NCBI GenBank assembly: GCA_016789295.1
Contig: JAEUQL010000002.1
Location: 1-25,646 of the forward strand
Direction: 5' to 3'
DNA from: Blastocatellia bacterium
Lineage (GTDB): Bacteria; Acidobacteriota; Blastocatellia; Chloracidobacteriales; JADJPF01
Length of the DNA stretch: 25,646 nt
Position 1 is the first letter of the stretch. Each line of letters begins with the position of its first letter. Below the pieces are notes generated by a model, which saw nothing but the letters and a program-made list of their open reading frames with translations, did not search any database and was not told the DNA's origin. The translations under genes and the position numbers were made by a program. This document shows positions 2,915-18,943 of the stretch, piece by piece.

Positions 2915-3712
2915 CTACTTGTAACAAAACTCTCTGACCAAATTACCAACTCTTTTGACCAGTTCCTTAGCGTCTACTTCTTTTTGCAACACCTCTATTT
3001 CAGAAACGATTCTACTACCAACTACTGCAGCTTCCGCATACTGCCAAACCTCTTTTACCTGTTCAACAGTGGAGATCCCGAAGCCAACAGCCACTGGCAA
3101 TGTAGAAAAATCCCTGATCCTCTTAATTAAGCGAGGTGCTGTCTCTGAAATAGACTGCTTCATCCCTGTTACACCCGTTCGAGATAGTGCATAGATAAAA
3201 CCACTTGCAACTTCTGTTATCCTCTTTATGCGTGCGTCACTGCTTGTTGGTGCAAGAAGAAATATAAGGTCTATATCAAATTTATCTGTATATCCTAGTA
3301 ACTCTCCTGATTCTTCTGGTGAAAGATCTGTAACAAGCAGCCCATCTATCTCAAGCTCAGCAGCTTTTTGGCAAAGCCTATCGAGTCCATATTGAAGTAA
3401 TGGATTGTAGTAGCTAAAAAGTATAATTGGTACAGATGTTGACTTTCTAACCTGTGCAACCATATCCAATATTTGTGCTAGATTAACACCTTCTTTTAGT
3501 GCTCTTTCGGCTGCACGCTGTATTACAGGACCATCTGCCATTGGATCTGAAAATGGAACACCTAGCTCTATTATATCTGCACCAGAACACGCAATCTCAA
3601 TAAGGATTTCCTGTGTTAATTTTAAGTTAGGATCTCCTGCAGTAATATACGGAATTAGTAGTTTTCTGCCTTCATTAGCAGCCTGCTCAAAAGTGGCTCG
3701 AATCCGACTCAT
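2915..3712 (-). CDS. trpA: Tryptophan synthase alpha chain
   Basis: [39 protein letters not shown]; ATGA overlap with trpB. Confidence 0.98.
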
Positions 3713-4917
3713 AGTTCAACTCCAAGTGCTTGTGCTACGGTGTGAACATCCTTATCACCTCTGCCAGAAAGATTGACCACAATGACCGAGTCTTTATCCA
3801 TCTTTGCTGCCAGTTTTAAGGTGTAAGCTACTGCGTGAGAAGATTCTAAAGCAGGAAGAATTCCTTCGATCTTTGCTAGAAGTTGAAAAGCTTCGAGTGC
3901 TTCATCATCAGAGACTGAAGTATATTCAACTCGCCCAATGTCGTGAAGATAGGCATGTTCTGGCCCTATGGCAGGATAGTCTAGCCCTGCAGATATGGAA
4001 TGAGTAGCTGCTACTTGACCTTCACTGCTCTGCAGTATGTAGCTGTGAGTCCCTTGTAACACACCTGGTCTACCTCCACCTTCTGACATAAACCTTGCTG
4101 CATGTTCACCAAGACTTTTACCCTTTCCACCAGCCTCAACCCCAACCATTCTCACACTTTTGTCATTAATAAAATCAAAGAACAGCCCTATAGCATTACT
4201 TCCACCACCAACACACGCCACTAAAAAGTCTGGAAGACGACCTTCAAGCTCTAAGATCTGGTTTCTGGCTTCTCGGCCAATCACAGATTGAAAGTCACGC
4301 ACCATTTGAGGATACGGGTGAGGTCCAAGTGCCGAACCCAAAAGATAGTAAGTAGTATCAACATTTGTTACCCAGTCTCGTAAAGCTTCATTGATTGCAT
4401 CTTTTAAGGTACAACTTCCTTGGTCAACACCAACAACTTCTGCACCAAGTAGTTTCATACGAAAAACGTTTAATGCCTGACGGCGCATGTCTTCTGTTCC
4501 CATATATATACAACACTGTTTGTTCAGTAGAGCAGAGACTGTAGCAGTAGCCACACCGTGTTGCCCAGCTCCAGTCTCTGCAATAATTCGTTGTTTACCC
4601 ATTCTGGAAGCTAGAAGTATCTGTCCCAAAGCATTATTTATCTTGTGTGCACCGGTGTGACTTAAATCCTCCCTTTTCAAATATATACGTGCACCACCAA
4701 GATAGTCTGTGAGCCTACGCGCAAAGAAGAGTGGAGTCGGTCGGCCTACATAATTTTTTAGTAGTTGCTGAAACTCTTCTTGAAAAACAGGGTCCGATTT
4801 TGTAGCTTCGTAAGCAGAAACAAGCTGCTCAAGTGGATACATCAATGTTTCTGGTACATAAGATCCACCATAACGGCCAAAGTGACCCATGGAATCTGGA
4901 ACAGCAGTATTTAACAA
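3709..4917 (-). CDS. trpB: Tryptophan synthase beta chain (TrpB1)
   Basis: [16 protein letters not shown] (PLP Lys), [24 protein letters not shown]; TTG start with AAGGAG upstream. Confidence 0.98.
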
Positions 4918-4966
4918 AAGTTCACTCCTTAAACTCTATTTGATTCTTTCGAATCTTTTCAACACT

Positions 4967-5644
4967 CTAACTTTCCAAAGAGAAACGTGGTAGATGTCCA
5001 GTAGTAGATTTTTGTAGTTCTTGAAAACCACGCCTAACTTCCTGTATTAATGTTTGCAAACGAACTCTATCTTTACGACCTGGAGCTGATTCCACACCAC
5101 TACAAACATCTACTCCATAAGGCTTAACTGCACGTATTGCTGCAACTACATTTTCGGGAACTATTCCACCTGCAACTATTATTCTAGGTGTGTACTGCTT
5201 TGCTTCTATTGCTATACGCCAATCAAAAAGCTGCCCTGTGCCACCGTAGGCATCTGCCGAGTAATTATCGAGTAGAATAGCACTAACAGAAAAATCCTTA
5301 ACATGCGCAACATCAAATGTTTCACCAACACGCAAAGCTTTTATTACTCTTCTAGGTAGCAAATGTGAGCAATATTCTGGACTTTCATTGCCGTGTAGTT
5401 GAACAACAGATATACCAACCATATCAGCTATACTAGTGAGATACTCCAGATTAAGCTCATTTACAAAAAGTCCAACAATAGAGGTAAAAGGAGGTAGTTT
5501 CAGTGCTATTTCTCTTGCATCTGATGGTGCTATGTAACGTGGACTTTTGTTATAAAAATTGAAACCTATTGCATCAACACCATTGTCTACACACATGGCA
5601 GCATCTTCATAGCTGGTAATTCCACATATCTTTACTTTGATCAC
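4967..5644 (-). CDS. trpF: Phosphoribosylanthranilate isomerase, with a C-terminal extension of about 20 aa
   Basis: VKICGIT, GFNFYNKSPR, VQLHGNE, GGTGQLFDW, AGGIVPEN, GVDVCSGVE; GTG start. Confidence 0.96.
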   Translation of the reverse strand: MIKVKICGITSYEDAAMCVDNGVDAIGFNFYNKSPRYIAPSDAREIALKLPPFTSIVGLFVNELNLEYLTSIADMVGISVVQLHGNESPEYCSHLLPRRVIKALRVGETFDVAHVKDFSVSAILLDNYSADAYGGTGQLFDWRIAIEAKQYTPRIIVAGGIVPENVVAAIRAVKPYGVDVCSGVESAPGRKDRVRLQTLIQEVRRGFQELQKSTTGHLPRFSLES

Positions 5645-5664
5645 AGCTTCTCTACCTTTCAGGT

Positions 5665-6435
5665 TTAAGCTTTTATCAGAGCCGAAAGTGCTTTGCCAGG
5701 CTCTTCGGCCTTCATAAAATGCTCACCTATTAAAAATGCACTATAACCAACATTTTGTAGCATCTTTATATCTTGTAAGCTATTGATTCCACTCTCGCTT
5801 ACTAAAAGTGTATCTTTCGGTACAGTTGCAGCAAGTTTTACAGATGTCTGGATGTCTACTTCAAATGTCTTGAGATTACGATTGTTTACACCTACTATTT
5901 TTGGCTTTGAGTTTAGCACTTTTTCTAGTTCGACTGCAGTATGAACTTCAATTAGTGTATCCAAACCCAGTTTCTGGCCAAGGTCTACTAGGTGTGATAT
6001 CTGCTCTGTTTCAAGTAAAGAAGCTATTAGAAGGAATGCATCTGCACCTGCTTCTAGTGATTCATAAACTTGATACTCATCAACTATAAAATCTTTTCTC
6101 AAAATTGGAATAGAGACATTGGATCGGATTTGACGAAGTATATCCAGAGAACCTTGAAAAAAATCCTCTTCTGTCAAAACCGAGAGAGCAGCCGCTCCAG
6201 CCAATTCATAACTTCTGGCTATTTGAACTGGCCTAAAATCCTGACAGATAACGCCTTTAGATGGAGAAGCTTTCTTGACTTCTGCAATTACATTTATTTG
6301 ACCAGGTCTTGCAAGAGCCTGGTAAAAACTCTGCTTTTTAGTCGATATAGAGTAAAGCTCTTTAAGCGGTCGTAGCTGTTTCGCTTCCTCTAATCTCTGA
6401 CGTTTCTTTTCTACTATTTTTGTAAGTATGTCCAT
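5665..6435 (-). CDS. trpC: Indole-3-glycerol phosphate synthase
   Basis: IAEVKKASPSKG, LSVLTE, LRKDFI, GVNNRNL, VSESGI. Confidence 0.98.
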   Translation of the reverse strand: MDILTKIVEKKRQRLEEAKQLRPLKELYSISTKKQSFYQALARPGQINVIAEVKKASPSKGVICQDFRPVQIARSYELAGAAALSVLTEEDFFQGSLDILRQIRSNVSIPILRKDFIVDEYQVYESLEAGADAFLLIASLLETEQISHLVDLGQKLGLDTLIEVHTAVELEKVLNSKPKIVGVNNRNLKTFEVDIQTSVKLAATVPKDTLLVSESGINSLQDIKMLQNVGYSAFLIGEHFMKAEEPGKALSALIKA

Positions 6436-6440
6436 ATAAA

Positions 6441-7475
6441 CTAATCAGACTGTTGGCTATAGCCTGCAAGCAGACCCAACTTTTCTATTGCCTTTCCGCT
6501 ATCTATAGACTCTTCAGCAAGCTTGACGCTGTCTTTTAGGCTAGGGGCAGCATCTGCTATGTAAAGTGCTGCTGCTGCACTTGCTATGACAGCACTGCGC
6601 AGTCCGCCTTGTTGCTTACCCGAAAGTATCTCTTTCATCTTGACTGCATTCTCTAACGGTGTATCTCCTAGTATCTCTACTAATTTAACCTCTTTTAACC
6701 CAAAGTCCGAAGGGAGAAGTTCAAACCTATCGACTCTTGCGTCTATTACTTCTGCAACATAGGTCTTCCCACAAAGCGAGATCTCATCCAATCCTCCTCC
6801 GCAACCATCTTCACCCCAAACGACCCAAGCCCTCTCTGCACCAAGCTCAGCAAGTACTGAAGCACATTTGTCAACATACTCCCTGGCAAAAACTCCAACT
6901 ATCTGCCGTGGCGTGCCAGCAGGGTTTGTCAAAGGACCAAGCAGATTAAAAGCTGTCCGAAAACCAAGTTGGCGGCGAATTTCAGCTACACGTTTAGTAG
7001 CCGGATGAAAAGCTGGAGCAAACATAAAACAGATACCTATTTCATCTAGACACTTGGTAGCTATCTCTGGACTGACTACAACTCTAACACCAAGTTCAGA
7101 GAGCACATCTGCACTACCTGAAAGACTTGATACAGCTCTATTTCCATGTTTTGCTACCGCTACACCGGCACCGGCAACTACAAAACCTGCTGTGGTGGAA
7201 ATGTTGAAAGTACCACGTCCATCACCACCTGTGCCAGCAGTATCAACATAGATGGTGTGGCGAGTTTGAAAACTCCTAGCACGAGACCGCATCACTTGCA
7301 CAAGCCCAACAAGCTCTTCAACTGTCTCGCCTTTAATAGCAAGTGCAGTAAGAAATGCAGCTATTTGTGCATCTGTAGTCTCACCATCAATTACTTCATC
7401 TAGTACAGCAGCAGTTTCGCTCCTAGTTAGATTTAGACCAGCTAGTAGCTTCTTTAAATAAGATTTAATTATCAT
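6441..7475 (-). CDS. trpD: Anthranilate phosphoribosyltransferase
   Basis: DTAGTGGDG, FNIST, KHGNRAVSSLSGSADVL, NLLGPLTNP. Confidence 0.98.
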   Translation of the reverse strand: MIIKSYLKKLLAGLNLTRSETAAVLDEVIDGETTDAQIAAFLTALAIKGETVEELVGLVQVMRSRARSFQTRHTIYVDTAGTGGDGRGTFNISTTAGFVVAGAGVAVAKHGNRAVSSLSGSADVLSELGVRVVVSPEIATKCLDEIGICFMFAPAFHPATKRVAEIRRQLGFRTAFNLLGPLTNPAGTPRQIVGVFAREYVDKCASVLAELGAERAWVVWGEDGCGGGLDEISLCGKTYVAEVIDARVDRFELLPSDFGLKEVKLVEILGDTPLENAVKMKEILSGKQQGGLRSAVIASAAAALYIADAAPSLKDSVKLAEESIDSGKAIEKLGLLAGYSQQSD

Positions 7476-7502
7476 TTAGATTAAAGAGTTAACAGCAACT
7501 TT

Positions 7503-8066
7503 CTAAAGATTAAGAAAATTCTTAATGAGCGTCTTACCATAAGTAGTCATTATAGACTCAGGATGAAATTGTACTCCTTCACAGCAGAAGTCACGGTGGC
7601 GAATTCCCATAACTATGCCATCTGGCGTAGTTGCTGAAACTTCCAAAGTAGCTGGTATAGATTCTCTTTCTATGACAAGTGAGTGATAGCGTGTAGCAGG
7701 AAATCTATACTCTACACCACGAAATAGAGTAAGACCATCATGGCATATCTCACTAGTTTTACCATGCATCAAGTAAGGAGCAGGGATAACTTTTGCTCCG
7801 AAAAAATGGCCTATTGCTTGATGACCTAAACATACTCCAAGTATGGGAATACGTCCTGCAAATTCTTTAATAGCATCTAACATTATACCTGCATTTTCTG
7901 GTCTTCCTGGACCAGGAGAAAGTACTATTCTAGCGGGCTTGAGTGCTCTTATCTCTTCAATTTTTATCTGATCGTTACGAACTACCACTATATCTGGCTC
8001 AAAATCTCCCAAATACTGAACTAGATTATAGGTAAAAGAGTCATAATTATCTAAAACAAATATCAT
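7503..8066 (-). CDS. trpG: Anthranilate synthase component II (glutamine amidotransferase)
   Basis: DNYDSFTYNL, SPGPG, LGVCLGHQ, RYHSL, QFHPES (Cys-His-Glu triad); trp operon context. Confidence 0.95.
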   Translation of the reverse strand: MIFVLDNYDSFTYNLVQYLGDFEPDIVVVRNDQIKIEEIRALKPARIVLSPGPGRPENAGIMLDAIKEFAGRIPILGVCLGHQAIGHFFGAKVIPAPYLMHGKTSEICHDGLTLFRGVEYRFPATRYHSLVIERESIPATLEVSATTPDGIVMGIRHRDFCCEGVQFHPESIMTTYGKTLIKNFLNL

Positions 8067-8091
8067 AAACCTCTCTTTAGTAGTTTAATGG

Positions 8092-8787
8092 TTACTGAGT
8101 CACTCTTTCTCTAATTAATACTTGCCTTACTTCTATCCGTTCTTTAGGTTTATCTTGTGTACCTTCTTCTATTGGTACAGCAGCTATAATATCAAGTATG
8201 TCTAATCCTTCTATAACTTTACCAAACACTGTGTACTGTCCATCGAGTGATGAAGCTTTTTGAGTACATATAAAGAAGTGACAAGTTCCACCATCTGGCT
8301 CACCATTTGGTCTTGCAAGTGAAACTGCACCACGTTCGTGCTTTATGTTTGGATCATATTCGGCTTTCAGTTTAGGGATTTCAAATATCTTTTTACGGTT
8401 GGGGTTTGTCTCTTCCCAAGAAGCAAAGTTCCCACTCTGTACAATGAACTTTGGAATTACACGGCTCACAGACATACCATCAAAGTAGCCAACTCTAGCC
8501 AGCCATACAAATTGACGGACATGGTTAGGAGCAGCATCGGCATAGAAGTCAAACACGATCCTACCCATTGATGTTTCTATAACTGCTTGTAAAGTTCTCA
8601 TCTCTTCAACGCTTAGAGCAACTTCTGGTGGAACTACTTTTTCTGGCTCTGGAGGTGGTAGTGGCTTTGTGGGTTCCACAACCACAGGAGGTGGTGGGTT
8701 TGATGGTTTTCTTACCTTCTGTGCTGACGCTTCACTGCAAAACAGTAAGAGTAAGATTAAAACAATAGTAAACCTACTCCCTATCAT
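8092..8787 (-). CDS. Exported cyclophilin-type peptidyl-prolyl isomerase with signal peptide and Pro-rich linker
   Basis: Signal-like MIGSRFTIVLILLLLFCSEASA|Q; linker PSNPPPPVVVEPTKPLPPPEPEK; domain motifs APNHVRQF, RVIPKFIVQSG, GAVSLAR, HFFIC, LDGQYTVFGKV. ATGA overlap with the kinase stop. Confidence 0.9.
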   Translation of the reverse strand: MIGSRFTIVLILLLLFCSEASAQKVRKPSNPPPPVVVEPTKPLPPPEPEKVVPPEVALSVEEMRTLQAVIETSMGRIVFDFYADAAPNHVRQFVWLARVGYFDGMSVSRVIPKFIVQSGNFASWEETNPNRKKIFEIPKLKAEYDPNIKHERGAVSLARPNGEPDGGTCHFFICTQKASSLDGQYTVFGKVIEGLDILDIIAAVPIEEGTQDKPKERIEVRQVLIRERVTQ

Positions 8788-11700
8788 AGAAATCTCCCTG
8801 CACCTGGTGTTGTTCCAAATTCTTGAGAAAGCTCTGCTAGATCATTGTAAACTATTTGCTTACTCTTCAAAAAGTTTACCCTGTCAGCAAATTTGTTCAA
8901 CTCAGAAGACATCATCTCTATTACTTCAATACTCTTTTGTAGCAAGTTAGCAGCTAACTTCTTTTCTCCTTTAGATTTTTCACAGAGTGCAAGACCATAA
9001 AGGGCACGCCATTCAAAGACAAGGCTGCCAGACTGACGTGCAAGGTCAAGAGCTTTCTTATAACTTACTACTGCTTCTGTTACACGACCTAACACACGCA
9101 ATGAATCTGCTATGCTGATAAGAATCTCTATCTCTGTCGGTTTAGCTCCAATCTCAATTGCTATCTGCTCTGCTTTCTGTAGTTCTCTTAAAGCTACTTC
9201 ATGCTCACCTCTGCCCTGATGTGCAAGGCCAATATTGAGCATCACTACACATTCTGTCACTTTATCAAAAGTCTCTAAAGCTAGAGCAAGTGATTGATGG
9301 AAGTAGGCCGAAGCTTCTTGATAGACACCACGACGACGGTAGTAGTCACCAACGCTGTTGAGCAGGCCAGCTTCACTCACTCTATACCCCAAGTCACGTG
9401 CAATTTTTAGAGCAGTGTCAAAGTTGTTGAGTGCATCATCATACTGTCCTACTTCAAGCATCACACTACCTATAAGTTTGAGTGATCTTTGTTGGCCAAG
9501 CCTATCATTACCTGCATAGGCTATCTCGTAAGCACGACGTGCAGAATCTTTGGCTTTTTCATATTGACCTAGTCTGTAGTGTGTTAGTCCAAGGCCACAT
9601 AGTGCGTTGCCTTCATTTACCTTGTCATTCAACTTACGAGCAAGTGCCATAGCACCTTCGTAGTTCTCTATTGCCTGACTGAATCTACCTATACCTTCGT
9701 AAGCAGCACCTATCACCATCAATGCTTGAACTTCCCACTCACAGTCTTCTATAGAAGTAAGAAGTGCAAGCCCCTGTTCTCCATACTCAAGGCTACGTGC
9801 CAGCTGTCCATATTGACGATAAAGTTCTCCAAGAGCAACAAAAGTTCTACCCATCATCTGTAACGAACGCACCTGTCGAGCAAATTCGAGTGTTTGTCGA
9901 AGTTCCGACTCTGCTCTCTGATGGTTGCCTATATGCATTAGTAGCCGACCGTAATTAAGGTGGTAGAGGGCTAGTCTGTCAACTTCAAGGTGTAGCCCAC
10001 AGGCTGCAAGTTGCATAATCTTGTTGCCTGGGTCTGTCTGTATTCCACCTTCAGCCAGAGAAAGTGTCAAACTTTCTATAGATTTTTCTGCCCATTCGTA
10101 GTACTTTGCTGCTTCAGACACAGCCATTGCACGCCAGGCGAGGTTTCCTGCCTCGACTGCATAGCGCAGTGCATGCCCATAATCTTCGGCATTGTGGTAG
10201 TGGTAAACAAGCTCAGCAGCTATCTTATTTGCTCGGTCTGCATAAAGTTCTTCAAGCTTACGACCTATCTGCTGATGCAATTTTTTTCGTCTGCGACGAC
10301 TGGTGCGCTCATAGAGTACTTTGCGCAGTGTACTATGATAAAAGACGTAACGATCTTCTCTTCCACTCATCTCTTCTTTCAATATATGTTCTCGCAAACC
10401 TGTTTCAACAAGTGATAAGAGGTCATCTTCATCAAGCTCTGTAACTGTCTGTAATGTTTCAAAAGTAAATCCATCTCCAAGTACAGCAGCTTGTGTAAAA
10501 ACATCAAGTGCTGTAGCGGGAAGTTTAGCGAGGTGAGCTTCAACCAAGTCAACTATAGAAGATGGAAGTTTGATCTCAGCTACATCTTCACAAACCCACT
10601 TTCCACCTTTGGGGCTTATCACTTTCTCTTCAAGCAAAAGTCTAACAATCTCACTCAAATAGAAAGCATTACCTTTTGTCTCTGTAAGTAATCTTGTAAG
10701 CATTGAGCTTGAGATCTCTATCTTACCAAAGATAAGCTCAAGTACCAGTTCAACCTCTTTTTCATTTAAGGGTGCAAGTTTTATCTGTTCATAGCTGCCA
10801 TAACGACTCATTTGTCGCAGCCAAGTTCGTACTGGGTTACCTTCGTTTGAAATCTCCCATTCACGCATTGTAGCAACTATAAATACACGTTCATCTGCAG
10901 TAGCTCTTATCAAGTAAGCTAGAAAATCTAGAGTCAACTCATCGGCCCACTGCAAGTCATCAAGAAAGAGGATCAGAGGGCGTAGTTTTGCAAGGCTAAT
11001 ATAGATCTTGGTCAAATAATCAAAAATCTTGAACTTCTCTTGTTCTGCATTACTACTAACTGTAGTTTCATGGCTCAAAAGAAAGGAAAGAGGGTCTGAA
11101 TTGGTAAAGTCATTAATAACTTTTTCAGTAAGAGAACCAAAAACCATGTCTACATTTTCAGAAGCATGTTCTGCTAGATAATGTATCGATCCACGTAGTG
11201 AATCACAGAAAACTTTATAAGGTACAGCACCGCCAGACTCATAGAAACGGCCTTGTAGAAAGAGTATATCTCTACCAGCCAATTTTTTTCTAAACTCTTC
11301 TACAAGTTTTGTCTTGCCAAGTCCAGCGTCTCCCACAATAAATAGGAGTCTACCACGGCCAGAGATAGAGCTTTCAAACTCTCTATTTAACCTTTCAAGT
11401 TCATTATTACGCCCTACAAAACTGTCAAAATTTGTTGTTAACTCCACCAAACTAACCCCGTTCAAAGAGCGGCGAGCAAGTTTATCCTGTCTCAGTGCTC
11501 TTTGAGCCGACTCAACAAGGTCAGAAGCATAGATACCATCTTCGGGAAACTTTGCAGCACCTACAGAGAGTGAGAGGTACTGTCCGCCTGGTATATCTTT
11601 CTGTAGGAACTTTGTTTCTGCTGTAATCTTTTTTAACTGTTCTAAAGTTTTGTCAAAATCCTTTACCAGCTCACCGACTGCCATCATAACAAAGCCATCG

Positions 11701-13001
11701 CCCGGTGAGCGACAGATCAACATATCTGATGGAGCTTTTTCATTCAAAAGTATTCCTACTTCACGAATTGCTAAGTCACCTATCAGATATCCATATGTAT
11801 CATTTATCTTTTTGAAACCGTCTATTCCTAGAAAAGCTATACTCAAAAGCTCATTTGTCTGAGCTAGTTTAGCAAGAATTTCTTCTAGTCTTTGGGTAAA
11901 ATACGCATAGGAATGCAGACCTGTAAGACTATCGTAGTTAATAAGCCCGCTTCTTCTTACTTGTGGAAAGTTACCTGTAGTTCCTCTGAGGGCTGCTGAT
12001 ATAGCTTGTTCAGTACCTTCACTGCTTTTCTGTTTCTGTAGATCACCAGTATGCTGTGAAACGTTAGATATAACCTGGCGAAGTCGTTGAGCTAGTGCTG
12101 TAGCAGTTGTTGGACGCATGTTACGGTCTTTAGCAAGTGTCTGCATTACTACAGCTTCAAGCTCTTCTGACACATCTGGGCGTAAGGGGCGCAGTGGAGC
12201 AGGAGCCTCGGTAGCGTGTTGAATGATCACAGCAGAAAGCGTCTTACCCCTAAAAGGAACCACTCCAGTAAGCATCTCATAGAGGATAATTCCAAGGCTG
12301 TATAGATCAGACCTAGTGTCTAAATCTTCACCTTTGCACTGTTCAGGAGAGATATAGTAAGGTGTTCCGACCATCATTCCAGCTTCGGTAAGTTTCGTCA
12401 GGGCATCACTGATAACGTGTTCTCGAAGCTCGGCTACACCAAAATCTACAACCTTGATATTCTCTATTCCACCTCTATGCGGCTCAATCATTATGTTTTC
12501 TGGTTTTAGATCGCGGTGAATGATTCCTGCATCATGGGCAGCCTGCACACCAGCACAAACAGCTATCATAATCTCCATAGCTCTAGCTGTAGAAAGTTGT
12601 TGGGCTTTTTTGAGTTCATCACGCAGGCTATAGCCATCAACATACTCCATTACTAGAAAAGTATTACCTTCTGGTAGGTTACCAAGGTCGTGAATCGTCA
12701 CTACACCACTGTGCTTGATCCTTGCGGCTGCCTGAGCTTCGCGCCGAAAGCGGGCAACAGCAAGTGGATTCTTCAAAGATTCAGCATTAAGAATCTTGAC
12801 AGCGACGTTGTCGCCTATCTGCACTCTGTTTGCAAGGTAGACGGTGGCCATGCCGCCTGTTCCAATGCGCTTCTCGATCCTGTATTTACCTTCAAGTAAC
12901 TGACCGAGCATTGGGTCTGCTGCTTCTAGTACTGCTCCATCGTCTGCACAAACAGACACTTCATCTGTGTATTCTTGATTGCAGATAGGACATAACTTCA
13001 T
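8784..13001 (-). CDS. Multidomain protein: Cys-rich N-terminal knuckle, Hanks Ser/Thr kinase, degenerate GGDEF, STAND/AAA_16 NTPase (SWACOS-like), winged helix, TPR array
   Basis: CPIC...CADDG; kinase GTGGMATVY, VAVK, HRDLKPEN, DFG, GTPYYISPE, SDLYSLG (about 12070-12890); GGDEF-like DSLTGL...FKKINDTYG...GD...RSPGDGF (about 11470-11940); Walker A GDAGLGKT (11310-11333), Walker B LFLDDLQWAD (10941-10970), sensor-1 IVATMR, FYH; roughly 40-aa helical repeats to the C-terminus. Confidence 0.92.
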   Translation of the reverse strand: MKLCPICNQEYTDEVSVCADDGAVLEAADPMLGQLLEGKYRIEKRIGTGGMATVYLANRVQIGDNVAVKILNAESLKNPLAVARFRREAQAAARIKHSGVVTIHDLGNLPEGNTFLVMEYVDGYSLRDELKKAQQLSTARAMEIMIAVCAGVQAAHDAGIIHRDLKPENIMIEPHRGGIENIKVVDFGVAELREHVISDALTKLTEAGMMVGTPYYISPEQCKGEDLDTRSDLYSLGIILYEMLTGVVPFRGKTLSAVIIQHATEAPAPLRPLRPDVSEELEAVVMQTLAKDRNMRPTTATALAQRLRQVISNVSQHTGDLQKQKSSEGTEQAISAALRGTTGNFPQVRRSGLINYDSLTGLHSYAYFTQRLEEILAKLAQTNELLSIAFLGIDGFKKINDTYGYLIGDLAIREVGILLNEKAPSDMLICRSPGDGFVMMAVGELVKDFDKTLEQLKKITAETKFLQKDIPGGQYLSLSVGAAKFPEDGIYASDLVESAQRALRQDKLARRSLNGVSLVELTTNFDSFVGRNNELERLNREFESSISGRGRLLFIVGDAGLGKTKLVEEFRKKLAGRDILFLQGRFYESGGAVPYKVFCDSLRGSIHYLAEHASENVDMVFGSLTEKVINDFTNSDPLSFLLSHETTVSSNAEQEKFKIFDYLTKIYISLAKLRPLILFLDDLQWADELTLDFLAYLIRATADERVFIVATMREWEISNEGNPVRTWLRQMSRYGSYEQIKLAPLNEKEVELVLELIFGKIEISSSMLTRLLTETKGNAFYLSEIVRLLLEEKVISPKGGKWVCEDVAEIKLPSSIVDLVEAHLAKLPATALDVFTQAAVLGDGFTFETLQTVTELDEDDLLSLVETGLREHILKEEMSGREDRYVFYHSTLRKVLYERTSRRRRKKLHQQIGRKLEELYADRANKIAAELVYHYHNAEDYGHALRYAVEAGNLAWRAMAVSEAAKYYEWAEKSIESLTLSLAEGGIQTDPGNKIMQLAACGLHLEVDRLALYHLNYGRLLMHIGNHQRAESELRQTLEFARQVRSLQMMGRTFVALGELYRQYGQLARSLEYGEQGLALLTSIEDCEWEVQALMVIGAAYEGIGRFSQAIENYEGAMALARKLNDKVNEGNALCGLGLTHYRLGQYEKAKDSARRAYEIAYAGNDRLGQQRSLKLIGSVMLEVGQYDDALNNFDTALKIARDLGYRVSEAGLLNSVGDYYRRRGVYQEASAYFHQSLALALETFDKVTECVVMLNIGLAHQGRGEHEVALRELQKAEQIAIEIGAKPTEIEILISIADSLRVLGRVTEAVVSYKKALDLARQSGSLVFEWRALYGLALCEKSKGEKKLAANLLQKSIEVIEMMSSELNKFADRVNFLKSKQIVYNDLAELSQEFGTTPGAGRFL

Positions 13002-13028
13002 ATTTGGAAAACCAGATTTTAGAAAGCC

Positions 13029-14510
13029 TTAGAGTTCCTTTTCAGCTACTTCAATAGCCTTCAAAAGAGCACGAGCCTTGTTTACAGTCTCTATATACTC
13101 TTTTTCGGCTACTGAGTCAGCAACAATTCCTGCGCCAGCTTGTATATAAGCTTTTCCGTCTTTGACAAGCACTGAACGAATAGTTATACACGAATCGAGA
13201 TTACCAGCATAGTCGAGATAAAGAACAGTTCCAGCGTAAAAGCTACGCTGGGTTGGTTCTAGTTCATCTATGATCTCCATTGCTCTTACTTTTGGAGCAC
13301 CACTAACGGTTCCTGCAGGAAAGCAGGCTTGCAGTGCATCAAAGCGATCTTTGCTAGAGTGGAGACGGCCTCGAAGGCTCGACACCATATGCATGACGTG
13401 CGAATAGCGTTCAATAACCATCATCTCCAAAATTTCTATTGAACCATAATCGGAGACACGCCCCAAGTCATTACGACCCAGATCTACTAGCATTATATGT
13501 TCAGCAACCTCTTTTTCATCTGCTCTTAGCTCTTCACCTGCCAAGGCATCTTCCACATCCGTAGTGCCACGCGGCCTTGTGCCTGCAATTGGTCTGTAGT
13601 CGAGCCTACGACTCGTACAGCGAACCAGCATTTCTGGAGATGCACCAGCAAGTGTAATCTCTCCCATACTGAGATAGAACATATAAGGTGAAGGGTTAAC
13701 CATTCTTACAGCTCTATATATCTGAAATGGATGAGTAACAATGTCTATCTCAAAACGTTGAGAAAGAACTACTTGAAATATATCTCCAGCCTTGATGTAC
13801 TCTTTGGCCTTCTCTACTGCATTCTCAAACTGCTCTTTGGTAAAGTTTGAACGGATAGAAGGCGGATATGTTCTTGGCCTCTTTGCTGGAAGTGCGATAG
13901 GTAATGTTAGCAAATTCTCTATCTGGGCTATTTTGTTTAGAGAATTTTGATAGAGAGTTTCTAGAGAACTATTTTCAGAAGATTTGAAGGCATTGACAAT
14001 AATTACTATCTGTCGTTTGACGTGATCAAAAGCAAGGATAGAAGAAAAAAACATCAGTACTGCATCTTCAATATTGATACTGTCAGGATTTTTATCAGGA
14101 ATATCTTCAAACCATCTAACAGCATCATAGCCTATGTATCCTACTGCACCACCTGTAAACATCGGTAAGTCAGTCATTTTGGATGGCTTAAATCTGTTAA
14201 ATATTTGCCGAACTATATCAAAAAAATCACCTTTCTGACTTCTGACTTGACCAGCTTCAACTATCTCTATCTGTCTGCCGCGAGCACGTAGAATCAAGTG
14301 TGGATCTATGCCAAGAAAAGAGTATCTAGCTACTTTTTCACCTCCTTCCACCGACTCAAGTAGAAAAGAGTGTGTTGATCCACTCGATAGTCTCAGATAG
14401 GCTGCTACAGGAGTAAGCAAGTCTGCTGCGATAGTTTTTGTTACTGCAACCAGATTGGAGTTGGAAGCCAGTTGGGTAAACTCTTCTAAGTTTTTAGGTT
14501 TGTAAGCCAT
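13029..14510 (-). CDS. trpE: Anthranilate synthase component I
   Basis: LLES and NPSPYM (Trp feedback motifs), GDIFQVVLSQR, SPEMLV, PIAGTRPRG, EHIMLVDLGRND. Confidence 0.96.
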   Translation of the reverse strand: MAYKPKNLEEFTQLASNSNLVAVTKTIAADLLTPVAAYLRLSSGSTHSFLLESVEGGEKVARYSFLGIDPHLILRARGRQIEIVEAGQVRSQKGDFFDIVRQIFNRFKPSKMTDLPMFTGGAVGYIGYDAVRWFEDIPDKNPDSINIEDAVLMFFSSILAFDHVKRQIVIIVNAFKSSENSSLETLYQNSLNKIAQIENLLTLPIALPAKRPRTYPPSIRSNFTKEQFENAVEKAKEYIKAGDIFQVVLSQRFEIDIVTHPFQIYRAVRMVNPSPYMFYLSMGEITLAGASPEMLVRCTSRRLDYRPIAGTRPRGTTDVEDALAGEELRADEKEVAEHIMLVDLGRNDLGRVSDYGSIEILEMMVIERYSHVMHMVSSLRGRLHSSKDRFDALQACFPAGTVSGAPKVRAMEIIDELEPTQRSFYAGTVLYLDYAGNLDSCITIRSVLVKDGKAYIQAGAGIVADSVAEKEYIETVNKARALLKAIEVAEKEL

Positions 14511-14511
14511 A

Positions 14512-15195
14512 CTATGTTTTTTCTACTCTATTTCCAGCCCGTTTTCTCAGTTCTGCTTGGATGTCTTCTAGGCGAACGTTAGACTCACACATTAGAACCA
14601 GCAAGTGGTATAAAAGGTCAGAAATTTCTGCTGTCATCTGAGGGACAGAACGGTTTTTTGCTGCAATTATTGTCTCTGCAGACTCTTCGCCAACTTTTTT
14701 CAAGATCTTGTCAAGACCTGAGTTGAAGAGGTAAGTAGTGTAAGAACCTTCTGGTCGCTTCTCTTTCCTCTCTTCTATCAACTTGTAGAGTTCATCTAGA
14801 AGTATTCCAAGTTCCAAAGCGTTGTGACTAACCAGAGAAACACTTCTCATTTCTCTAGTTGGCTCTTCATCTTTGCCAAGCCCTCGATGAAAACAGGACT
14901 GTTCTCCAAGGTGGCATGCTGGACCGTTTGGTTCAACCAAAACTACTAGAGCGTCACCATCACAATCGAGCTTTATATCGACTACTTTCTGATAGTTACC
15001 TGAAGTTTCACCTTTATGCCAAAGCTCTTTTCTAGACCTGCTCCAGAACCAAGTTTCGCCTGTTTGGAGTGTTTTGGAAAGACTTTCAGCGTTCATATAA
15101 GCTAAAGTCAACACTTCGTATGTCCGACAATCCTGAACAATAGCAGGTATTAAACCATTGTTGTCAAACTTCAGACTCCGAATAGAGACCGTCAT
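14512..15195 (-). CDS. hisIE: Bifunctional phosphoribosyl-AMP cyclohydrolase / phosphoribosyl-ATP pyrophosphatase
   Basis: HisI: AYMN, WSRSR, KGETSG, DCDGD, ACH...SCF. HisE: SYT, KKVGEE, DLLYH. Confidence 0.97.
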
Positions 15196-15243
15196 AAACT
15201 GTTTTTAACTCCTGTGGATTAGTTTTGAGGATTTTGTGGAGGT

Positions 15244-15252
15244 ATTCTAACA
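15244..15252 (-). promoter_or_regulatory. Candidate extended -10 internal promoter (TG-T-TAGAAT) upstream of hisIE-trpE
   Basis: Minus strand reads TGTTAGAAT about 50 nt upstream of the hisIE ATG in the 97-nt hisF-hisIE gap; no -35 at the normal spacing. Pattern match only. Confidence 0.4.
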
Positions 15253-15292
15253 GATTTTGCAAAAAATCTCTCTGAAGCAGCGTTAAATTGGG

Positions 15293-16054
15293 TTACCTTA
15301 CTATAATCCCTCTACTACTCAAGTACTCTTTTGCTTGCCCAATAGTAAACTGACCAAAATGGAAGATAGAAGCAGCCAAAACAGCCGATGCTTTACCAAC
15401 ATTCAAAGCTTCATAAAGGTGCTCTAAGCTGCCTGCACCACCAGAAGCAATCACTGGAATCTTCACTCTGCTGGCTATTTCTGCAAGTAGTTCAGTATCA
15501 TAGCCATTCTTTGTACCGTCTGCATCCATGCTGGTTACAAGCAGCTCACCTGCTCCCAGTCTTTCTGCACTTTCTGCCCAATCGAGAGCGTCTATTCCCG
15601 TTGGCCTTCTTCCTCCGTGGGTATAGACTTCCCATCTTAGAGGAGGTTCTTCTCTTCTCTTTGCGTCTATCGCTACAACTATGCACTGGCTTCCAAATCT
15701 AGTAGCACTTTCTGTTATCAACTCTGGCTGGTTTAGTGCTGCAGTATTGAGAGAGACCTTGTCTGCACCTGCAAGAAGTATCTCCCTGATATCTTCTATT
15801 TTGCGGATGCCACCACCTACTGTAAAAGGAATAAAGACTGAGTCAGCAACATCACGAACCATCTGCAGGACAATGGGTCGTGCATCTGAAGAGGCCGTAA
15901 TGTCGAGGAAAACTAGTTCGTCGGCTCCCTCAGAGTCATAACGCTGCGCTTGCTCTACTGGATCGCCGGCATCTTTGAGTGAAACAAAATTGGTGCCTTT
16001 AACTACTCTTCCTCTATCGATATCTAAACAAGGAATAATTCTTTTAGCCAACAT
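15293..16054 (-). CDS. hisF: Imidazole glycerol phosphate synthase cyclase subunit
   Basis: [63 protein letters not shown]. Confidence 0.98.
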
Positions 16055-16081
16055 ATTGATGTCTCACTCCGCTATCGTACA

Positions 16082-16698
16082 AGCACAGTTAGCTGTTAAT
16101 GCTATCGTAGTAGTGATTCTCTCCTTCATCGAAGTACTCACCAATAACCTTCAAGCCAGCGTCTGCTAGTGCCTGTCGATATGCTTCATCACCCAAGGAG
16201 ACCGATTGACGGCCAGTCGTCAGATCCGCCCATGCTGCTTTCTGTATGGGTGCCGAGAACAGGAAGCGGCCACCTGGTTTCAGAGCTGTAGACACTCGCT
16301 GGATCAATGCTTGCTGAACGTCAGGGTGCAGCAGGAATAAAAGGCCAATGGCCACGATTCCGTCATATTTTCTGCCGAAGAATTGGGACTCTTCTACAGG
16401 CTCGCAAGCCGTTTGTGCTTGTGGAAACTGACGGTTAAATTCTGCGACCAAGCTTGGAGAGGCATCAACACCATACACCACACATCCCTTGTTGATCAGT
16501 GCCTCTGAGATGGGAACACCAGTACCACATCCAATATCGAGAACAGACGCGCCTGCTGGTAACATCTGGCACCAGGTTTGCACCGTAGCTGCACCAATAG
16601 ATGAACGCTGAGCTATGAATTGGTGCGCCACAGCTTCCCATCCATTTGATCGATCTGATTGCACCGCTCACTCCTATTGATCGTGGTCTAACTGTGCT
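16082..16698. repeat. 11-bp perfect inverted repeat pair bracketing the methyltransferase gene: AGCACAGTTAG (16082-16092) and CTAACTGTGCT (16688-16698)
   Basis: Read directly from the sequence; the left copy contains the gene's stop codon and the right copy lies 24 nt upstream of its start. Confidence 0.85.
16089..16664 (-). CDS. Class I SAM-dependent methyltransferase, higher GC than neighbours
   Basis: VLDIGCGTGVP, GVDASP, YDGIVA, LKPGGRFLF; GTG start with GGAG SD; about 52% GC (249/480 counted over 16141-16620). Confidence 0.9.
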   Translation of the reverse strand: MQSDRSNGWEAVAHQFIAQRSSIGAATVQTWCQMLPAGASVLDIGCGTGVPISEALINKGCVVYGVDASPSLVAEFNRQFPQAQTACEPVEESQFFGRKYDGIVAIGLLFLLHPDVQQALIQRVSTALKPGGRFLFSAPIQKAAWADLTTGRQSVSLGDEAYRQALADAGLKVIGEYFDEGENHYYDSINS

Positions 16699-16718
16699 GC
16701 CTCTTGTTGTCTGAAGTA

Positions 16719-18707: not shown

Positions 18708-18830
18708 CGAAGGAAACCTACCTCCATTATTGCGTCTACAAATCTGCTAAGTAGGTCGGTAACTTCTAAAGTGGTAAAAAGACTGTTGGGATGGTAATAG
18801 ACTCTTACTTAGCAATTAGGTAAAGCTTGC

Positions 18831-18859
18831 ATTTTAGATACTAGTAGAAAGATTTGCAA
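18831..18859 (-). promoter_or_regulatory. Candidate sigma70 promoter for the ppiD-like gene: TTGCAA-N17-TAAAAT
   Basis: Minus strand -35 at 18859-18854, exact 17-nt spacer, -10 at 18836-18831; lies just downstream of the receptor terminator. Confidence 0.55.
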
Positions 18860-18883
18860 TCTCTACCAGCAAAGATTTTGAGC

Positions 18884-18919: not shown

Positions 18920-18943
18920 GGTAACGTTTTTTGCAAACGTTTT

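What the first reader, a model, noticed from the sequence alone, without database searches (positions are those of the whole stretch)
8092..13001. Kinase-GGDEF*-STAND-TPR plus cyclophilin (4.9 kb) inserted between trpE and trpG
Seen: the two anthranilate synthase subunit genes are split by a 1405-aa signalling protein and a PPIase, with 27- and 25-nt gaps, no visible repeats or mobility genes, and no obvious GC step. All catalytic kinase motifs and Walker A/B are intact. Established: STAND NTPases with C-terminal TPR sensors (MalT, SWACOS class, Avs) oligomerise on ligand binding and activate an N-terminal effector; kinase- or adenylate-cyclase-fused SWACOS proteins are known. A GGDEF-fold domain between kinase and STAND, inside a trp operon, is not something I recognise. 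Inference: either a metabolite-sensing kinase switch acting on aromatic amino-acid enzymes, or an NLR-like defence or stress sensor using a housekeeping promoter.
Basis: partly seen in the sequence, partly recalled or inferred. Interest (0 to 1): 0.72.

Follow-up and report, generated by a model that had tools for sequence, protein, structure and literature searches.

The report
Signalling kinase riding a tryptophan operon
A large switch-like protein kinase and an exported protein-folding enzyme really do sit between two tryptophan-synthesis genes in this sludge bacterium, but they look like two passengers of different age in an operon that collects unrelated genes, not a new tryptophan regulator or phage defence.

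Summary
On the minus strand lie trpE, a 1405-aa Ser/Thr kinase with degenerate GGDEF, STAND ATPase and TPR domains, a signal-peptide cyclophilin, then trpGDCFBA.

It is not a misassembly. The same order is seen in 7 of 8 same-family genomes; the eighth is cut by contig ends. Other assemblies bridge the junctions.

The insert has two layers:
- **Cyclophilin:** an exported cyclophilin lies between trpE and trpG in 10 of 16 informative genomes of other families of the class, in 0 of 4 sister-family genomes and in 0 of 40 from other classes of the phylum.
- **Kinase:** it entered once, at the base of this family. Its closest relatives in the sister family lie in unrelated neighbourhoods.

The architecture is an Acidobacteriota-specific variant of the known kinase/cyclase/STAND/TPR fusion. 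The genome has 94 Hanks-kinase matches. All domains are under strong purifying selection, the TPR sensor most, and there is no defence-type match beyond the generic kinase and TPR.

Best reading: a housekeeping-type STAND signalling kinase co-expressed with the his-trp operon, ligand and substrates unknown. Interest is modest.

The parts
13029..14510 (-). trpE (anthranilate synthase component I), 493 aa; upstream neighbour of the insert
   Evidence: Pfam Chorismate_bind 3.1e-92 and Anth_synt_I_N 3.8e-39.
13002..13028 (-). 27-nt trpE-kinase spacer
   Evidence: Read directly. A 313-nt contig from a metatranscriptome library spans 12818-13130 with 0 differences. The equivalent spacer in the six complete relatives is 46-362 nt.
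8784..13001 (-). 1405-aa cytoplasmic STAND-type Ser/Thr kinase (kinase, degenerate GGDEF, NOD, arm, TPR)
   Evidence: Pfam, motifs, orthologues in 8 of 8 family genomes, one clade, dN/dS 0.035-0.085.
12087..12884 (-). Hanks-type protein kinase domain (residues 40-305), catalytic motifs intact
   Evidence: Pkinase 1.5e-51. The same coordinates were found by PF00069 on the genome. Motifs are conserved in 32 aligned family members.
11469..11939 (-). Degenerate GGDEF domain (residues 355-511): PGDGF in place of GGDEF, and Gly in place of the first Asp of DxD
   Evidence: GGDEF 2.5e-24. Alignments to solved diguanylate cyclases. PGDGF in 9 of the 10 trp-clade sequences (one reads PGDTF); GGDEF is kept in 9 of the 11 paralogues P0015-P0025. 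dN/dS 0.043 and 0.112.
10299..11408 (-). STAND NOD (about residues 532-901): P-loop NBD with Walker A GDAGLGKT and Walker B LFLDD, a helical domain and a winged-helix domain
   Evidence: AAA_16 1.7e-28. AF2 secondary-structure order. Best Foldseek match is the STAND protein PH0952, 6mfv.
8907..9983 (-). TPR sensor, about nine helix pairs (about residues 1007-1365)
   Evidence: TPR_12 4.4e-40 and TPR_MalT 47.4 bits. AF2 helices H496-H854 with pLDDT mostly above 90. LGN/Pins-type TPR matches. The most constrained region: dN/dS 0.010 and 0.061.
8092..8787 (-). Exported single-domain cyclophilin PPIase, 231 aa, with signal peptide and Pro-rich linker; its start overlaps the kinase stop by 4 nt
   Evidence: Pro_isomerase 2.3e-39. 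Sequence. Weak NCBIfam matches to PpiA and PpiB, below their cut-offs. Homologous to the tandem cyclophilin found at this junction in other families of the class.
7503..8066 (-). trpG (glutamine amidotransferase subunit), 187 aa; downstream neighbour
   Evidence: GATase 4.4e-56.
2915..7475 (-). trpD, trpC, trpF, trpB, trpA, tightly spaced on the same strand
   Evidence: Pfam; coordinates.
14512..18707 (-). Upstream same-strand genes: hisIE, hisF, a methyltransferase and a SurA/PpiD-like periplasmic chaperone. Together with the trp genes these probably form one supraoperon
   Evidence: Pfam. A terminator-like hairpin lies only upstream, at 18890-18918. SurA-like, hisF, hisIE and trpE keep this order in 5 family relatives.

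Best explanation
The 4.9-kb 'insert' consists of two unrelated passengers of different age in a his-trp supraoperon. The host is a Blastocatellia-class acidobacterium, a metagenome-assembled genome (MAG) from sludge or bioreactor samples.

**1. The cyclophilin gene is the older resident.**
- In other classes of the phylum trpE abuts trpG.
- In this class an exported tandem cyclophilin gene, often with one more unrelated gene, lies between them.
- This family keeps one cyclophilin domain plus the signal peptide.

**2. The 1405-aa gene is a cytoplasmic STAND-type Hanks Ser/Thr kinase.**
- It belongs to a paralogous family (kinase, GGDEF, NOD, TPR) found across the order.
- That family is the Acidobacteriota counterpart of the widespread kinase / class III cyclase / AAA_16 / TPR fusion.
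- One paralogue moved in between trpE and the cyclophilin at the base of this family. It has been inherited vertically since, packed tightly against the cyclophilin gene and trpG.

**Inferred mechanism, from what is established for STAND proteins.**
1. A conserved endogenous ligand binds the TPR sensor and relieves autoinhibition.
2. The NOD exchanges ADP for ATP and multimerises.
3. The N-terminal kinase domains are brought together, trans-autophosphorylate and phosphorylate still-unknown substrates.
4. The catalytically dead but selectively maintained GGDEF domain acts as a dimerising or nucleotide-binding relay between kinase and NOD.

The operon position gives co-expression with amino-acid biosynthesis genes. 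The evidence does not show a tryptophan-specific role.

**Shown:** anatomy, homology, phylogeny, synteny, selective constraint.
**Inferred:** activation mechanism, role of GGDEF*, co-transcription.
For: **Anatomy**
- Domains and motifs.
- STAND fold: AF2 pLDDT 89.9; top Foldseek match is PH0952, a STAND protein with a TPR sensor (6mfv, 1.4e-13); Avs3 (8dgc) is also matched.
- Passages of PMC6468293 state that bacterial STANDs are mainly MalT-type activators and Ser/Thr kinases. They describe the ADP-closed to ATP-open multimerising switch.

**Known-kind architecture**
- 31 of 120 listed clusters have Pkinase+GGDEF+AAA_16. Every one that carries a source name is Acidobacteriota, Blastocatellia or Chloracidobacterium.
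- 32 of 120 have PF00211 cyclase in the same position.
- The best NCBIfam hit is TIGR03903, the kinase/cyclase fusion.

**Family-level, vertical trp linkage**
- trpE-kinase-cyclophilin-trpG is seen in G001-G006 and G007.
- The 7 trp-linked proteins form one clade (SH-aLRT 100). It is sister to G009/G010 proteins (95), which lie among thioesterase, fatty-acid hydroxylase, TerD and POT genes.

**The cyclophilin is older**
- It is present after trpE in 10 of 16 informative class genomes outside the order, in 5 of 7 families.
- It is present in 0 of 4 sister-family genomes.
- It is present in 0 of 40 genomes of other classes, where 34 of 40 have trpE followed directly by trpG.

**The junction is a hot spot**
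- DUF3108-like, M28 peptidase and ankyrin genes lie at the same site.
- A Pkinase-FGE-sulfatase gene lies between trpD and trpC in G039, and a 733-aa ORF between trpC and trpF in G033.

**Base rate:** 94 Pkinase matches and 11 AAA_16 matches in this 4.6-Mb genome.

**Constraint**
- dN/dS is 0.035 and 0.085 overall, 0.010 and 0.061 for the TPR, and 0.043 and 0.112 for GGDEF*.
- Divergence equals that of the neighbours: kinase 57-64%, TrpE 54-70%.

**Operon packing and assembly**
- Kinase stop to cyclophilin start is -4, 2, 2, 2, 2 and 21 nt in the relatives.
- No Rfam element was found, and terminators do not exceed the shuffled controls.
- An RNA-library contig bridges trpE and the kinase, and DNA contigs of other runs bridge all three junctions.
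Against: - The linkage to trp has been kept through the whole family, with TrpE down to 54% identity, and with translational-coupling spacing to the cyclophilin gene and trpG. That is also what a functional tie would give.
- A second, independent Hanks kinase gene sits inside the trp operon of another family (G039). This could hint at a recurrent kinase-trp connection rather than chance.
- No ligand, substrate or oligomer was tested.
- The RNA evidence is one low-depth contig from a library that may hold DNA.
- Contigs of X1 and X2 may come from the source sample, so they are not independent.
- The tree used the quick search with SH-aLRT support only, and several rows have a skewed composition.
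- Only 25 of the 37 PADLOC families for the full protein were displayed. The NOD-TPR part was rescanned alone.
Confidence: 0.6

Rival explanations
1. Tryptophan- or amino-acid-linked regulator. The kinase was recruited into the operon because it senses a pathway metabolite or amino-acid starvation. Sensing would be through the TPR, or through a GTP-binding dead GGDEF domain. It would then phosphorylate Trp-pathway enzymes or a regulator, so that its dose follows operon expression.
For: - The position between the two anthranilate synthase subunit genes is conserved in 7 of 8 family relatives.
- The spacing to the cyclophilin gene and trpG is tight.
- The degenerate motif PGDGF is conserved in 9 of 10 members of the trp-linked clade, under purifying selection.
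- An independent kinase gene lies in the trp operon of G039.
- MalT shows that a STAND repeat sensor can bind a small metabolite (recalled knowledge; MalT is discussed in PMC6468293).
Against: - The sister orthologues (44% identity) sit in unrelated contexts.
- The same junction holds functionally unrelated genes for exported proteins in other families.
- The genome has 94 kinase matches, so a kinase gene landing in any one operon is not improbable.
- No paper was found that links a bacterial Ser/Thr kinase to TrpE (search: 3 papers, none relevant by title or abstract).
- No Trp-binding domain such as ACT or TrpR is present in the protein.
Confidence: 0.2
2. NLR-like anti-phage or stress sensor (Avs-like). 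It would use the housekeeping operon for constitutive expression, with the kinase as an abortive-infection effector.
For: - The STAND plus TPR architecture resembles Avs. Foldseek lists Avs3 (8dgc, 9.6e-10, rank 23).
- PADLOC kinase models (PD-T4-6, MAD6, MkoA) match the kinase domain.
- Passages of PMC12803255 report TPR sensors in most defence STANDs, and protein-kinase effectors on related STAND-less defence proteins.
Against: - The PADLOC matches are confined to the generic Hanks domain (residues about 30-330). The NOD-TPR part alone matches only a generic TPR model, plus PDC-S27 at 0.0015.
- The gene is present in 8 of 8 family genomes, forms one vertical clade and lies in a core his-trp context. 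No defence or mobility genes are nearby.
- The TPR sensor is the slowest-evolving part (dN/dS 0.010 and 0.061). This is the opposite of what one expects of an arms-race receptor.
Confidence: 0.05
3. A functional pair with the cyclophilin. The kinase entered next to the cyclophilin gene and is kept translationally coupled to it because the two act in one envelope-stress or protein-folding circuit.
For: - Kinase stop and cyclophilin start overlap or lie within 2 nt in the window and in 5 of 6 relatives.
- A SurA/PpiD-like chaperone gene lies upstream in the same transcription direction.
- Other genes inserted at this junction also encode probably exported proteins.
Against: - The kinase has no signal peptide or membrane segment (sequence), whereas the cyclophilin is exported, so direct contact is unlikely.
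- No cyclophilin was found by tblastn in the 19-kb loci around the sister-family orthologues and the paralogues. Pfam scans of 10 of their immediate neighbours found none either.
- The cyclophilin was at this site before the kinase came.
Confidence: 0.1
4. Assembly artefact: a chimeric contig joins trp genes to an unrelated kinase locus.
For: The genome is a fragmented MAG: 942 contigs, 83% complete.
Against: - The same order is found in 7 other genomes.
- A 28,560-nt contig (X1) spans the whole stretch. X2 contigs bridge all three junctions. An X3 contig bridges the kinase-cyclophilin junction. An RNA-library contig bridges trpE and the kinase.
Confidence: 0.01

Closest known systems
TIGR03903 'TOMM system kinase/cyclase fusion protein' and the wider Pkinase / class III cyclase (PF00211) / AAA_16 / TPR fusions
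   Same: - Same order of modules: N-terminal Hanks kinase, a nucleotide-cyclase-type domain, a STAND ATPase and a TPR sensor, with similar length.
- It is the best NCBIfam hit (3.1e-110).
- 32 of 120 listed homologue clusters have this architecture.
   Different: - The score of 369.8 bits is far below the equivalog cut-off of 705.75.
- The middle domain is a GGDEF-family domain, not PF00211, and is catalytically degenerate.
- There is no RiPP/TOMM gene context.
PH0952 and MalT-type STAND proteins with TPR/SUPR sensors
   Same: - NOD, arm and TPR-sensor anatomy.
- Top structural match is 6mfv, 1.4e-13, over 877 alignment columns.
- TPR_MalT is above its Pfam cut-off.
- The double-autoinhibition and ADP/ATP switch model comes from passages of PMC6468293.
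   Different: - The effector is a protein kinase plus a dead GGDEF domain, not a DNA-binding domain.
- Global TM-score is low (0.23-0.30), as expected for different conformations or lengths.
- At sequence level the NOD gives no match. The only PH0952 (6mfv) match is weak (1.6e-4) and falls in the TPR part.
Mycobacterial PknK-type STAND Ser/Thr kinases
   Same: A Hanks kinase fused to a MalT-like AAA and repeat regulatory region. PMC6468293 names Ser/Thr kinases as a main class of bacterial STANDs. The PknK details are recalled and were not tested here.
   Different: PknK has no GGDEF or cyclase domain between the kinase and the NOD (recalled).
Avs anti-phage STAND NTPases
   Same: A STAND NTPase with a C-terminal TPR-like sensor and an N-terminal effector. 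Avs3 appears among the structural matches.
   Different: - No Avs model matched in PADLOC.
- Core-genome context, vertical inheritance and a slowly evolving sensor.
Non-trp genes inserted in trp operons (Xie et al. 2003, as cited in PMC2395257)
   Same: Passages of PMC2395257 state that genes of unknown function had already been found inserted within trp operons. They say these may be mere passengers ('morons') or may aid the pathway.
   Different: - The sites named in those passages are trpB-trpA and trpF-trpB. Here the site is trpE-trpG.
- The passengers here are a cyclophilin and a STAND kinase.
- The searches found no relevant paper that holds both 'cyclophilin' or 'peptidyl-prolyl' and a trp operon. 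Two papers hold 'peptidyl-prolyl' together with 'tryptophan operon', but on unrelated subjects.

Membership tests
Hanks-type (eukaryotic-like) Ser/Thr protein kinase | Pkinase fold with Gly-rich loop, catalytic Lys (VAxK), HRDLKxxN, DFG and APE/SPE motifs | tested here: met
   PF00069 1.5e-51, profile positions 1-260 of 263. GTGGMATVY, VAVK, HRDLKPEN, DFG and SPE are all present, and are conserved in the family alignment.
STAND NTPase (signal transduction ATPase with numerous domains) | P-loop NBD with Walker A and B, followed by a helical domain and a winged-helix domain (NOD), then an arm and a repeat sensor | tested here: met
   AAA_16 1.7e-28. Walker A GDAGLGKT and Walker B LFLDD. The AF2 model (pLDDT 89.9) has the alpha/beta, helical, beta-hairpin/helix and all-helical-repeat order. 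The best Foldseek match is the STAND protein PH0952.
STAND NTPase | Ligand-dependent ADP/ATP switch and multimerisation | not testable with these tools
   Needs biochemistry (SEC-MALS or cryo-EM, with and without nucleotide and ligand).
Active diguanylate cyclase (GGDEF) | GG[DE]EF active-site motif and the metal-binding first Asp of DxD | tested here: not met
   PGDGF stands in place of GGDEF, and G-I-D in place of D-x-D, in alignments to solved cyclases (6d9m, WspR) and in the family alignment. The domain belongs to the GGDEF family by homology (2.5e-24), but the catalytic features fail.
TIGR03903 TOMM kinase/cyclase fusion | Score above the curated equivalog cut-off (705.75 bits) | tested here: not met
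   369.8 bits. No PF00211 domain.
Avs / defence-type STAND | Match to a defence STAND model; defence-island or sporadic distribution | tested here: not met
   PADLOC gives only generic kinase and TPR models. Present in 8 of 8 family genomes in a his-trp context.
Cyclophilin-type PPIase, exported | Pro_isomerase domain, with an N-terminal signal peptide | tested here: met
   PF00160 2.3e-39. A hydrophobic N-terminus ending ...ASAQ, then a Pro-rich linker. The signal peptide was judged by eye; no predictor was run. The same holds for the relatives.
Single operon with the trp genes | Co-transcription of trpE, kinase, cyclophilin and trpG | tested here: inconclusive
   Spacers of 27, -4 and 25 nt. 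No terminator excess. One RNA-library contig bridges trpE and the kinase, but it is a contig at low depth and DNA carry-over is not excluded.

The most novel reading that the evidence does not exclude
The trp-linked clade is a starvation-reporting STAND kinase.

- Its synthesis is tied to his-trp operon transcription.
- Its catalytically dead GGDEF domain keeps the guanine-nucleotide contacts and serves as a GTP (or c-di-GMP or alarmone) sensor.
- Its highly conserved TPR binds a Trp-pathway protein or metabolite.

Together this would make a Hanks-kinase route that couples amino-acid supply to phospho-signalling in Blastocatellia. The independent kinase gene inside the trp operon of another family would be a second instance.
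Probability: 0.1. Interest if true: 0.7.

Novelty: new variant of a known kind. Interest (0 to 1): 0.35.

Why it matters
The finding gives a dated, two-step history of how a textbook biosynthetic operon accretes unrelated genes.

- An exported cyclophilin became fixed between trpE and trpG in one class of Acidobacteriota.
- A STAND kinase was then added in one family.

It also defines an uncharacterised, order-wide family: Hanks kinase, GGDEF, STAND and TPR. Within it, one clade keeps GGDEF and another keeps a conserved dead version. That makes it a natural system for asking what a cyclase-fold domain does between an effector kinase and a NOD.

If the operon position turned out to be functional, it would be a new kind of link between amino-acid biosynthesis and Ser/Thr phospho-signalling. 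On present evidence that is a minority reading, and the locus is best treated as an ordinary signalling gene in an unusual but explicable place.

Tried and rejected
**Checks that found nothing**
- Rfam scan of the whole window for leaders or riboswitches: 0 matches.
- Promoter and terminator scans: no more sites than in the shuffled controls, and nothing in the spacers.
- Repeat search for target-site duplications or inverted repeats around the insert: only short chance-level pairs, none bracketing 8092-13001.
- Sequence search of the NOD-TPR part against PDB: TPR proteins only, no NOD match.
- The search for related loci on genome contigs with the whole protein: only two true orthologue loci, identical to G003 and G006. 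Otherwise generic kinase or GGDEF hits. Its use was to name the lineage (Acidobacteriota / Blastocatellia MAGs).

**Literature searches**
- A bacterial Ser/Thr kinase acting on anthranilate synthase: 3 papers, none relevant by title or abstract.
- Cyclophilin in trp operons: nothing relevant.
- The Pkinase+GGDEF+AAA_16+TPR architecture: no paper describing it, judged from titles and abstracts only.
- Supplements were closed, so supplementary domain tables of PMC9239204 or PMC12803255 could list this architecture unseen.

**Sequencing runs**
They are not used for any habitat claim.
- Parts of the stretch without cover in X3 and X13 are not interpreted.

**Considered and dropped**
- A second structure prediction, of the kinase plus GGDEF half. 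Pfam and the PDB alignments already settle the fold.
- A metagenome-contig scan. The genome sample already gave enough.

**Earlier notes of this scan**
- Looked up. Only notes on this same window bear on the finding.

Full report
**1. The observation**

All long ORFs from 2915 to 18707 lie on the minus strand. Pfam names them, in transcription order:

| Gene | Coordinates |
|---|---|
| SurA/PpiD-like chaperone | 16719-18707 |
| small methyltransferase | 16089-16664 |
| hisF | 15293-16054 |
| hisIE | 14512-15195 |
| trpE | 13029-14510 |
| 1405-aa protein | 8784-13001 |
| 231-aa cyclophilin | 8092-8787 |
| trpG | 7503-8066 |
| trpD, trpC, trpF, trpB, trpA | down to 2915 |

- The spacers are 27 nt (trpE to kinase) and 25 nt (cyclophilin to trpG). 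The kinase stop overlaps the cyclophilin start in ATGA.
- The 1405-aa protein has Pkinase (residues 40-305), GGDEF (355-511), AAA_16 (528-709), and TPR_12 and TPR_MalT repeats to the C-terminus.
- The kinase motifs and Walker A and B are intact. The GGDEF signature reads PGDGF, and the first Asp of the DxD metal site is Gly.
- GC content shows no step. No repeats bracket the segment. No mobility gene is among the 18 ORFs scanned.
The cyclophilin starts with a signal peptide and a proline-rich linker, so it is an exported enzyme.

**2. It is not an artefact**

The window lies in a fragmented MAG: 942 contigs, 83% complete.

- Public runs from sludge and bioreactor metagenomes hold the stretch.
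- A 28,560-nt contig (X1) spans all of it.
- Two contigs of X2 together bridge all three junctions.
- An X3 contig, from another study, bridges the kinase-cyclophilin junction.
- A 313-nt contig from a biofilm metatranscriptome library (X13) spans 12818-13130, the trpE-kinase junction, without a difference.
- X1 and X2 may be the source sample and are not independent. The RNA contig has low depth and does not exclude DNA carry-over.

Independent support comes from synteny (section 4).

**3. What the big protein is**

- *Fold.* An AF2 model of residues 512-1405, built on a 40-row alignment, is confident: mean pLDDT 89.9, pTM 0.75. It shows an alpha/beta P-loop domain, a helical domain, a winged-helix-like module, an arm and about nine TPR helix pairs.
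- *Structural matches.* The best Foldseek match is PH0952, the solved STAND protein with a TPR sensor (6mfv, 1.4e-13). Avs3 (8dgc) and LGN/Pins TPR domains follow.
- *Literature.* Passages of PMC6468293 state that bacterial STANDs are mainly MalT-type activators and Ser/Thr kinases. They describe the closed ADP form, the open ATP form and inducer-dependent multimerisation.
- *Sequence families.* The best NCBIfam match is TIGR03903, the 'TOMM system kinase/cyclase fusion protein', but at 369.8 bits against a cut-off of 705.75.
- *Homologue architectures.* Among the best 120 clusters:
  - 31, including the query, carry Pkinase+GGDEF+AAA_16. Every one that has a source name is Acidobacteriota, Blastocatellia or Chloracidobacterium.
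  - 32 carry a class III cyclase domain (PF00211) in the same position. Their source names include Deltaproteobacteria and Dehalococcoidia.

The protein is thus a lineage-specific variant of a known fusion, with a GGDEF-family domain where the relatives have a cyclase domain.

- *Gene family size.* The genome is rich in such genes: 94 Pkinase matches (a few are two halves of one gene) and 11 AAA_16 matches in 4.6 Mb.

**4. History of the kinase gene**

- All 8 same-family genomes (G001-G008) have an orthologue at 57-66% identity.
- In G001-G006 the order is trpE, kinase, cyclophilin, trpG.
- G007 has the same order, with the kinase, the cyclophilin and hisIE each in two frames. That is most simply read as assembly frameshifts.
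- In G008 both the kinase and trpE stop at contig ends, so it is uninformative.
- In the sister family of the same order, the closest relatives (44% identity; G009, G010) lie among thioesterase, fatty-acid hydroxylase, TerD/vWA and POT-transporter genes. No trp gene or cyclophilin is nearby.
- Further full-length paralogues (34-39% identity), including second copies in the same family and the Chloracidobacterium-like genomes, are also unlinked to trp.
- A maximum-likelihood tree (29 rows, quick search, SH-aLRT only) puts the seven trp-linked proteins in one clade (100). That clade is sister to the G009/G010 pair (95), and the other paralogues lie outside.

The gene therefore entered the operon once, at the base of this family, and has descended vertically.

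- *GGDEF motif.* The motif is PGDGF in 9 of the 10 trp-clade sequences and PGDTF in one. Nine of the 11 paralogues P0015-P0025 keep GGDEF. All of them, apart from the own-genome paralogue P0032, lack the first Asp of DxD.
- *Selection.* dN/dS for two orthologue pairs is 0.035 and 0.085 overall. By region:

| Region | Pair 1 | Pair 2 |
|---|---|---|
| TPR part | 0.010 | 0.061 |
| NOD | 0.030 | 0.089 |
| kinase | 0.042 | 0.063 |
| dead GGDEF domain | 0.043 | 0.112 |

- *Divergence.* Amino-acid divergence matches that of the neighbours: kinase 57-64%, TrpE 54-70%, TrpG 71-77%.

**5. History of the cyclophilin**

This was the unexpected part.

- In families of the class outside this order, TrpE is followed by one or two cyclophilin domains and then trpG. 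This holds in 10 of 16 informative genomes: G023, G024, G028, G025, G033, G037, G030, G034, G038 and G039, in 5 of 7 families.
- It does not hold in G026 (plain trpE-trpG), in G032, G036 and G040 (trpE-trpD), or in G027 and G035 (trpE followed by unrelated genes).
- G031 has too little flank, and G029 was not examined.
- Where the ORF could be read, it is a single exported tandem-cyclophilin protein of 382-409 aa.
- An additional unrelated gene often follows it: DUF3108-like, M28 peptidase or ankyrin repeats.
- The window's cyclophilin is most like the second domain of such a tandem protein.
- In the sister family (G009, G010, G012, G014) there is no cyclophilin at trpE or trpG. G009 and G010 have orphan orthologous trpE and trpG plus a second, plain trpE-G-D-C operon.
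- Outside the class, 40 genomes of other classes of the phylum were fetched. None has a cyclophilin match after trpE, and 34 have trpE followed directly by trpG.

The cyclophilin is thus a class-level resident of this junction. The kinase was later inserted between trpE and the cyclophilin.

- All cyclophilins at this site carry signal-peptide-like N-termini.
- Within the family, the kinase stop and the cyclophilin start are -4 to 21 nt apart. The cyclophilin gene and trpG mostly overlap, whereas the trpE-kinase spacer varies from 46 to 362 nt.

**6. How it most likely works**

Shown: an intact Hanks kinase, an intact P-loop NOD, a TPR sensor, a dead but conserved GGDEF domain, no signal peptide or membrane segment, and operon packing.

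Inferred from the STAND literature:
1. The resting protein is a monomer, ADP-bound and autoinhibited by its sensor and arm.
2. A ligand on the TPR opens the NOD.
3. ATP binding drives multimerisation.
4. The clustered kinase domains trans-autophosphorylate and act on substrates.

GGDEF domains function as dimers (established knowledge, recalled). Sitting between kinase and NOD, the dead domain is best seen as a dimerising or nucleotide-binding relay. The very slow evolution of the TPR argues for a conserved cellular ligand rather than a phage protein.

**7.

*A Trp-specific switch.* It is not excluded, and I give it about 0.2.
- The sister orthologues are elsewhere.
- The junction is a demonstrable sink for unrelated genes.
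- The genome has about ninety kinases.
- Passages of PMC2395257 show that non-trp genes inside trp operons are a recognised phenomenon with the same unresolved 'passenger or helper' question.
- In its favour, a Pkinase-FGE-sulfatase gene sits between trpD and trpC in G039. This is a second, independent kinase in a trp operon of this class.

*Defence.* It is unlikely, about 0.05.
- PADLOC hits are generic, to the kinase domain and to a TPR model.
- The gene is core, vertical and slowly evolving.

**8. Novelty and score**

- The kinase / cyclase-fold / STAND / TPR kind is known. The GGDEF version is uncharacterised, and my searches found it described in no paper (titles and abstracts only, supplements closed).
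- The trpE-trpG position is real, but it is explained by a two-step accretion history.
- I classify the finding as a new variant of a known kind, with modest interest (0.35).
- The class-wide exported cyclophilin inside the trp operon is the more curious by-product.

Noticed in passing
Loci L066-L070 and L073-L076 (G039, G023, G030, G033, G025, G028, G024, G037, G034), and L049 (G038): An exported tandem-cyclophilin gene (382-409 aa where read) lies between trpE and trpG in 10 of 16 informative Blastocatellia genomes outside this order. It is absent from this position in 40 of 40 genomes of other classes of the phylum. Why a periplasmic folding enzyme is fixed inside a trp operon is unexplained.
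   Followed up: yes
L066:9542-11416 (G039): A 624-aa Pkinase plus FGE-sulfatase protein is encoded between trpD and trpC. This is an independent second case of a Hanks kinase gene inside a trp operon of this class.
   Followed up: partly
L069:9742-11943 (G033): A 733-aa ORF with no Pfam match lies between trpC and trpF.
   Followed up: no
window 16089-16664: The methyltransferase gene between the SurA-like gene and hisF has no counterpart in five family relatives (L013-L017). There SurA-like and hisF are only 86-137 nt apart, and tblastn with the methyltransferase found nothing.
   Followed up: partly
L071, L072, L160, L161, L164, L166 (G009, G010): These sister-family genomes hold two sets of anthranilate synthase genes. 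One set is orphan trpE and trpG, orthologous to the window's genes; trpE is followed by a homocysteine S-methyltransferase/MTHFR fusion gene. The other is a second, more divergent plain trpE-G-D-C operon.
   Followed up: partly
L077 (G007:C148): The kinase, the cyclophilin and hisIE each appear in two frames in this assembly. Several frameshifts within 8 kb suggest sequencing or assembly errors rather than pseudogenes.
   Followed up: no
Proteins P0015-P0025 (paralogue clade); L028 (G000:C111): The paralogues keep GGDEF but also lack the first Asp of DxD, so they may not be active cyclases either. The own-genome paralogue P0032 has DxD and SGDEF, but sits on a long branch.
   Followed up: partly
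window 12264-12521: Contigs of other organisms in runs X1-X3 match short pieces of the kinase-domain coding region and then run on unlike. One X2 contig gives a spurious 'joint' at 12357/12492. These are cross-matches to other kinase genes, not variants of this locus.
   Followed up: no
window 16719-22339: A SurA/PpiD-like chaperone gene heads the his-trp gene string. It follows a CarboxypepD_reg plus outer-membrane beta-barrel gene, with a strong terminator-like hairpin at 18890-18918 between them. Envelope-folding genes and amino-acid biosynthesis genes therefore share one gene string.
   Followed up: no
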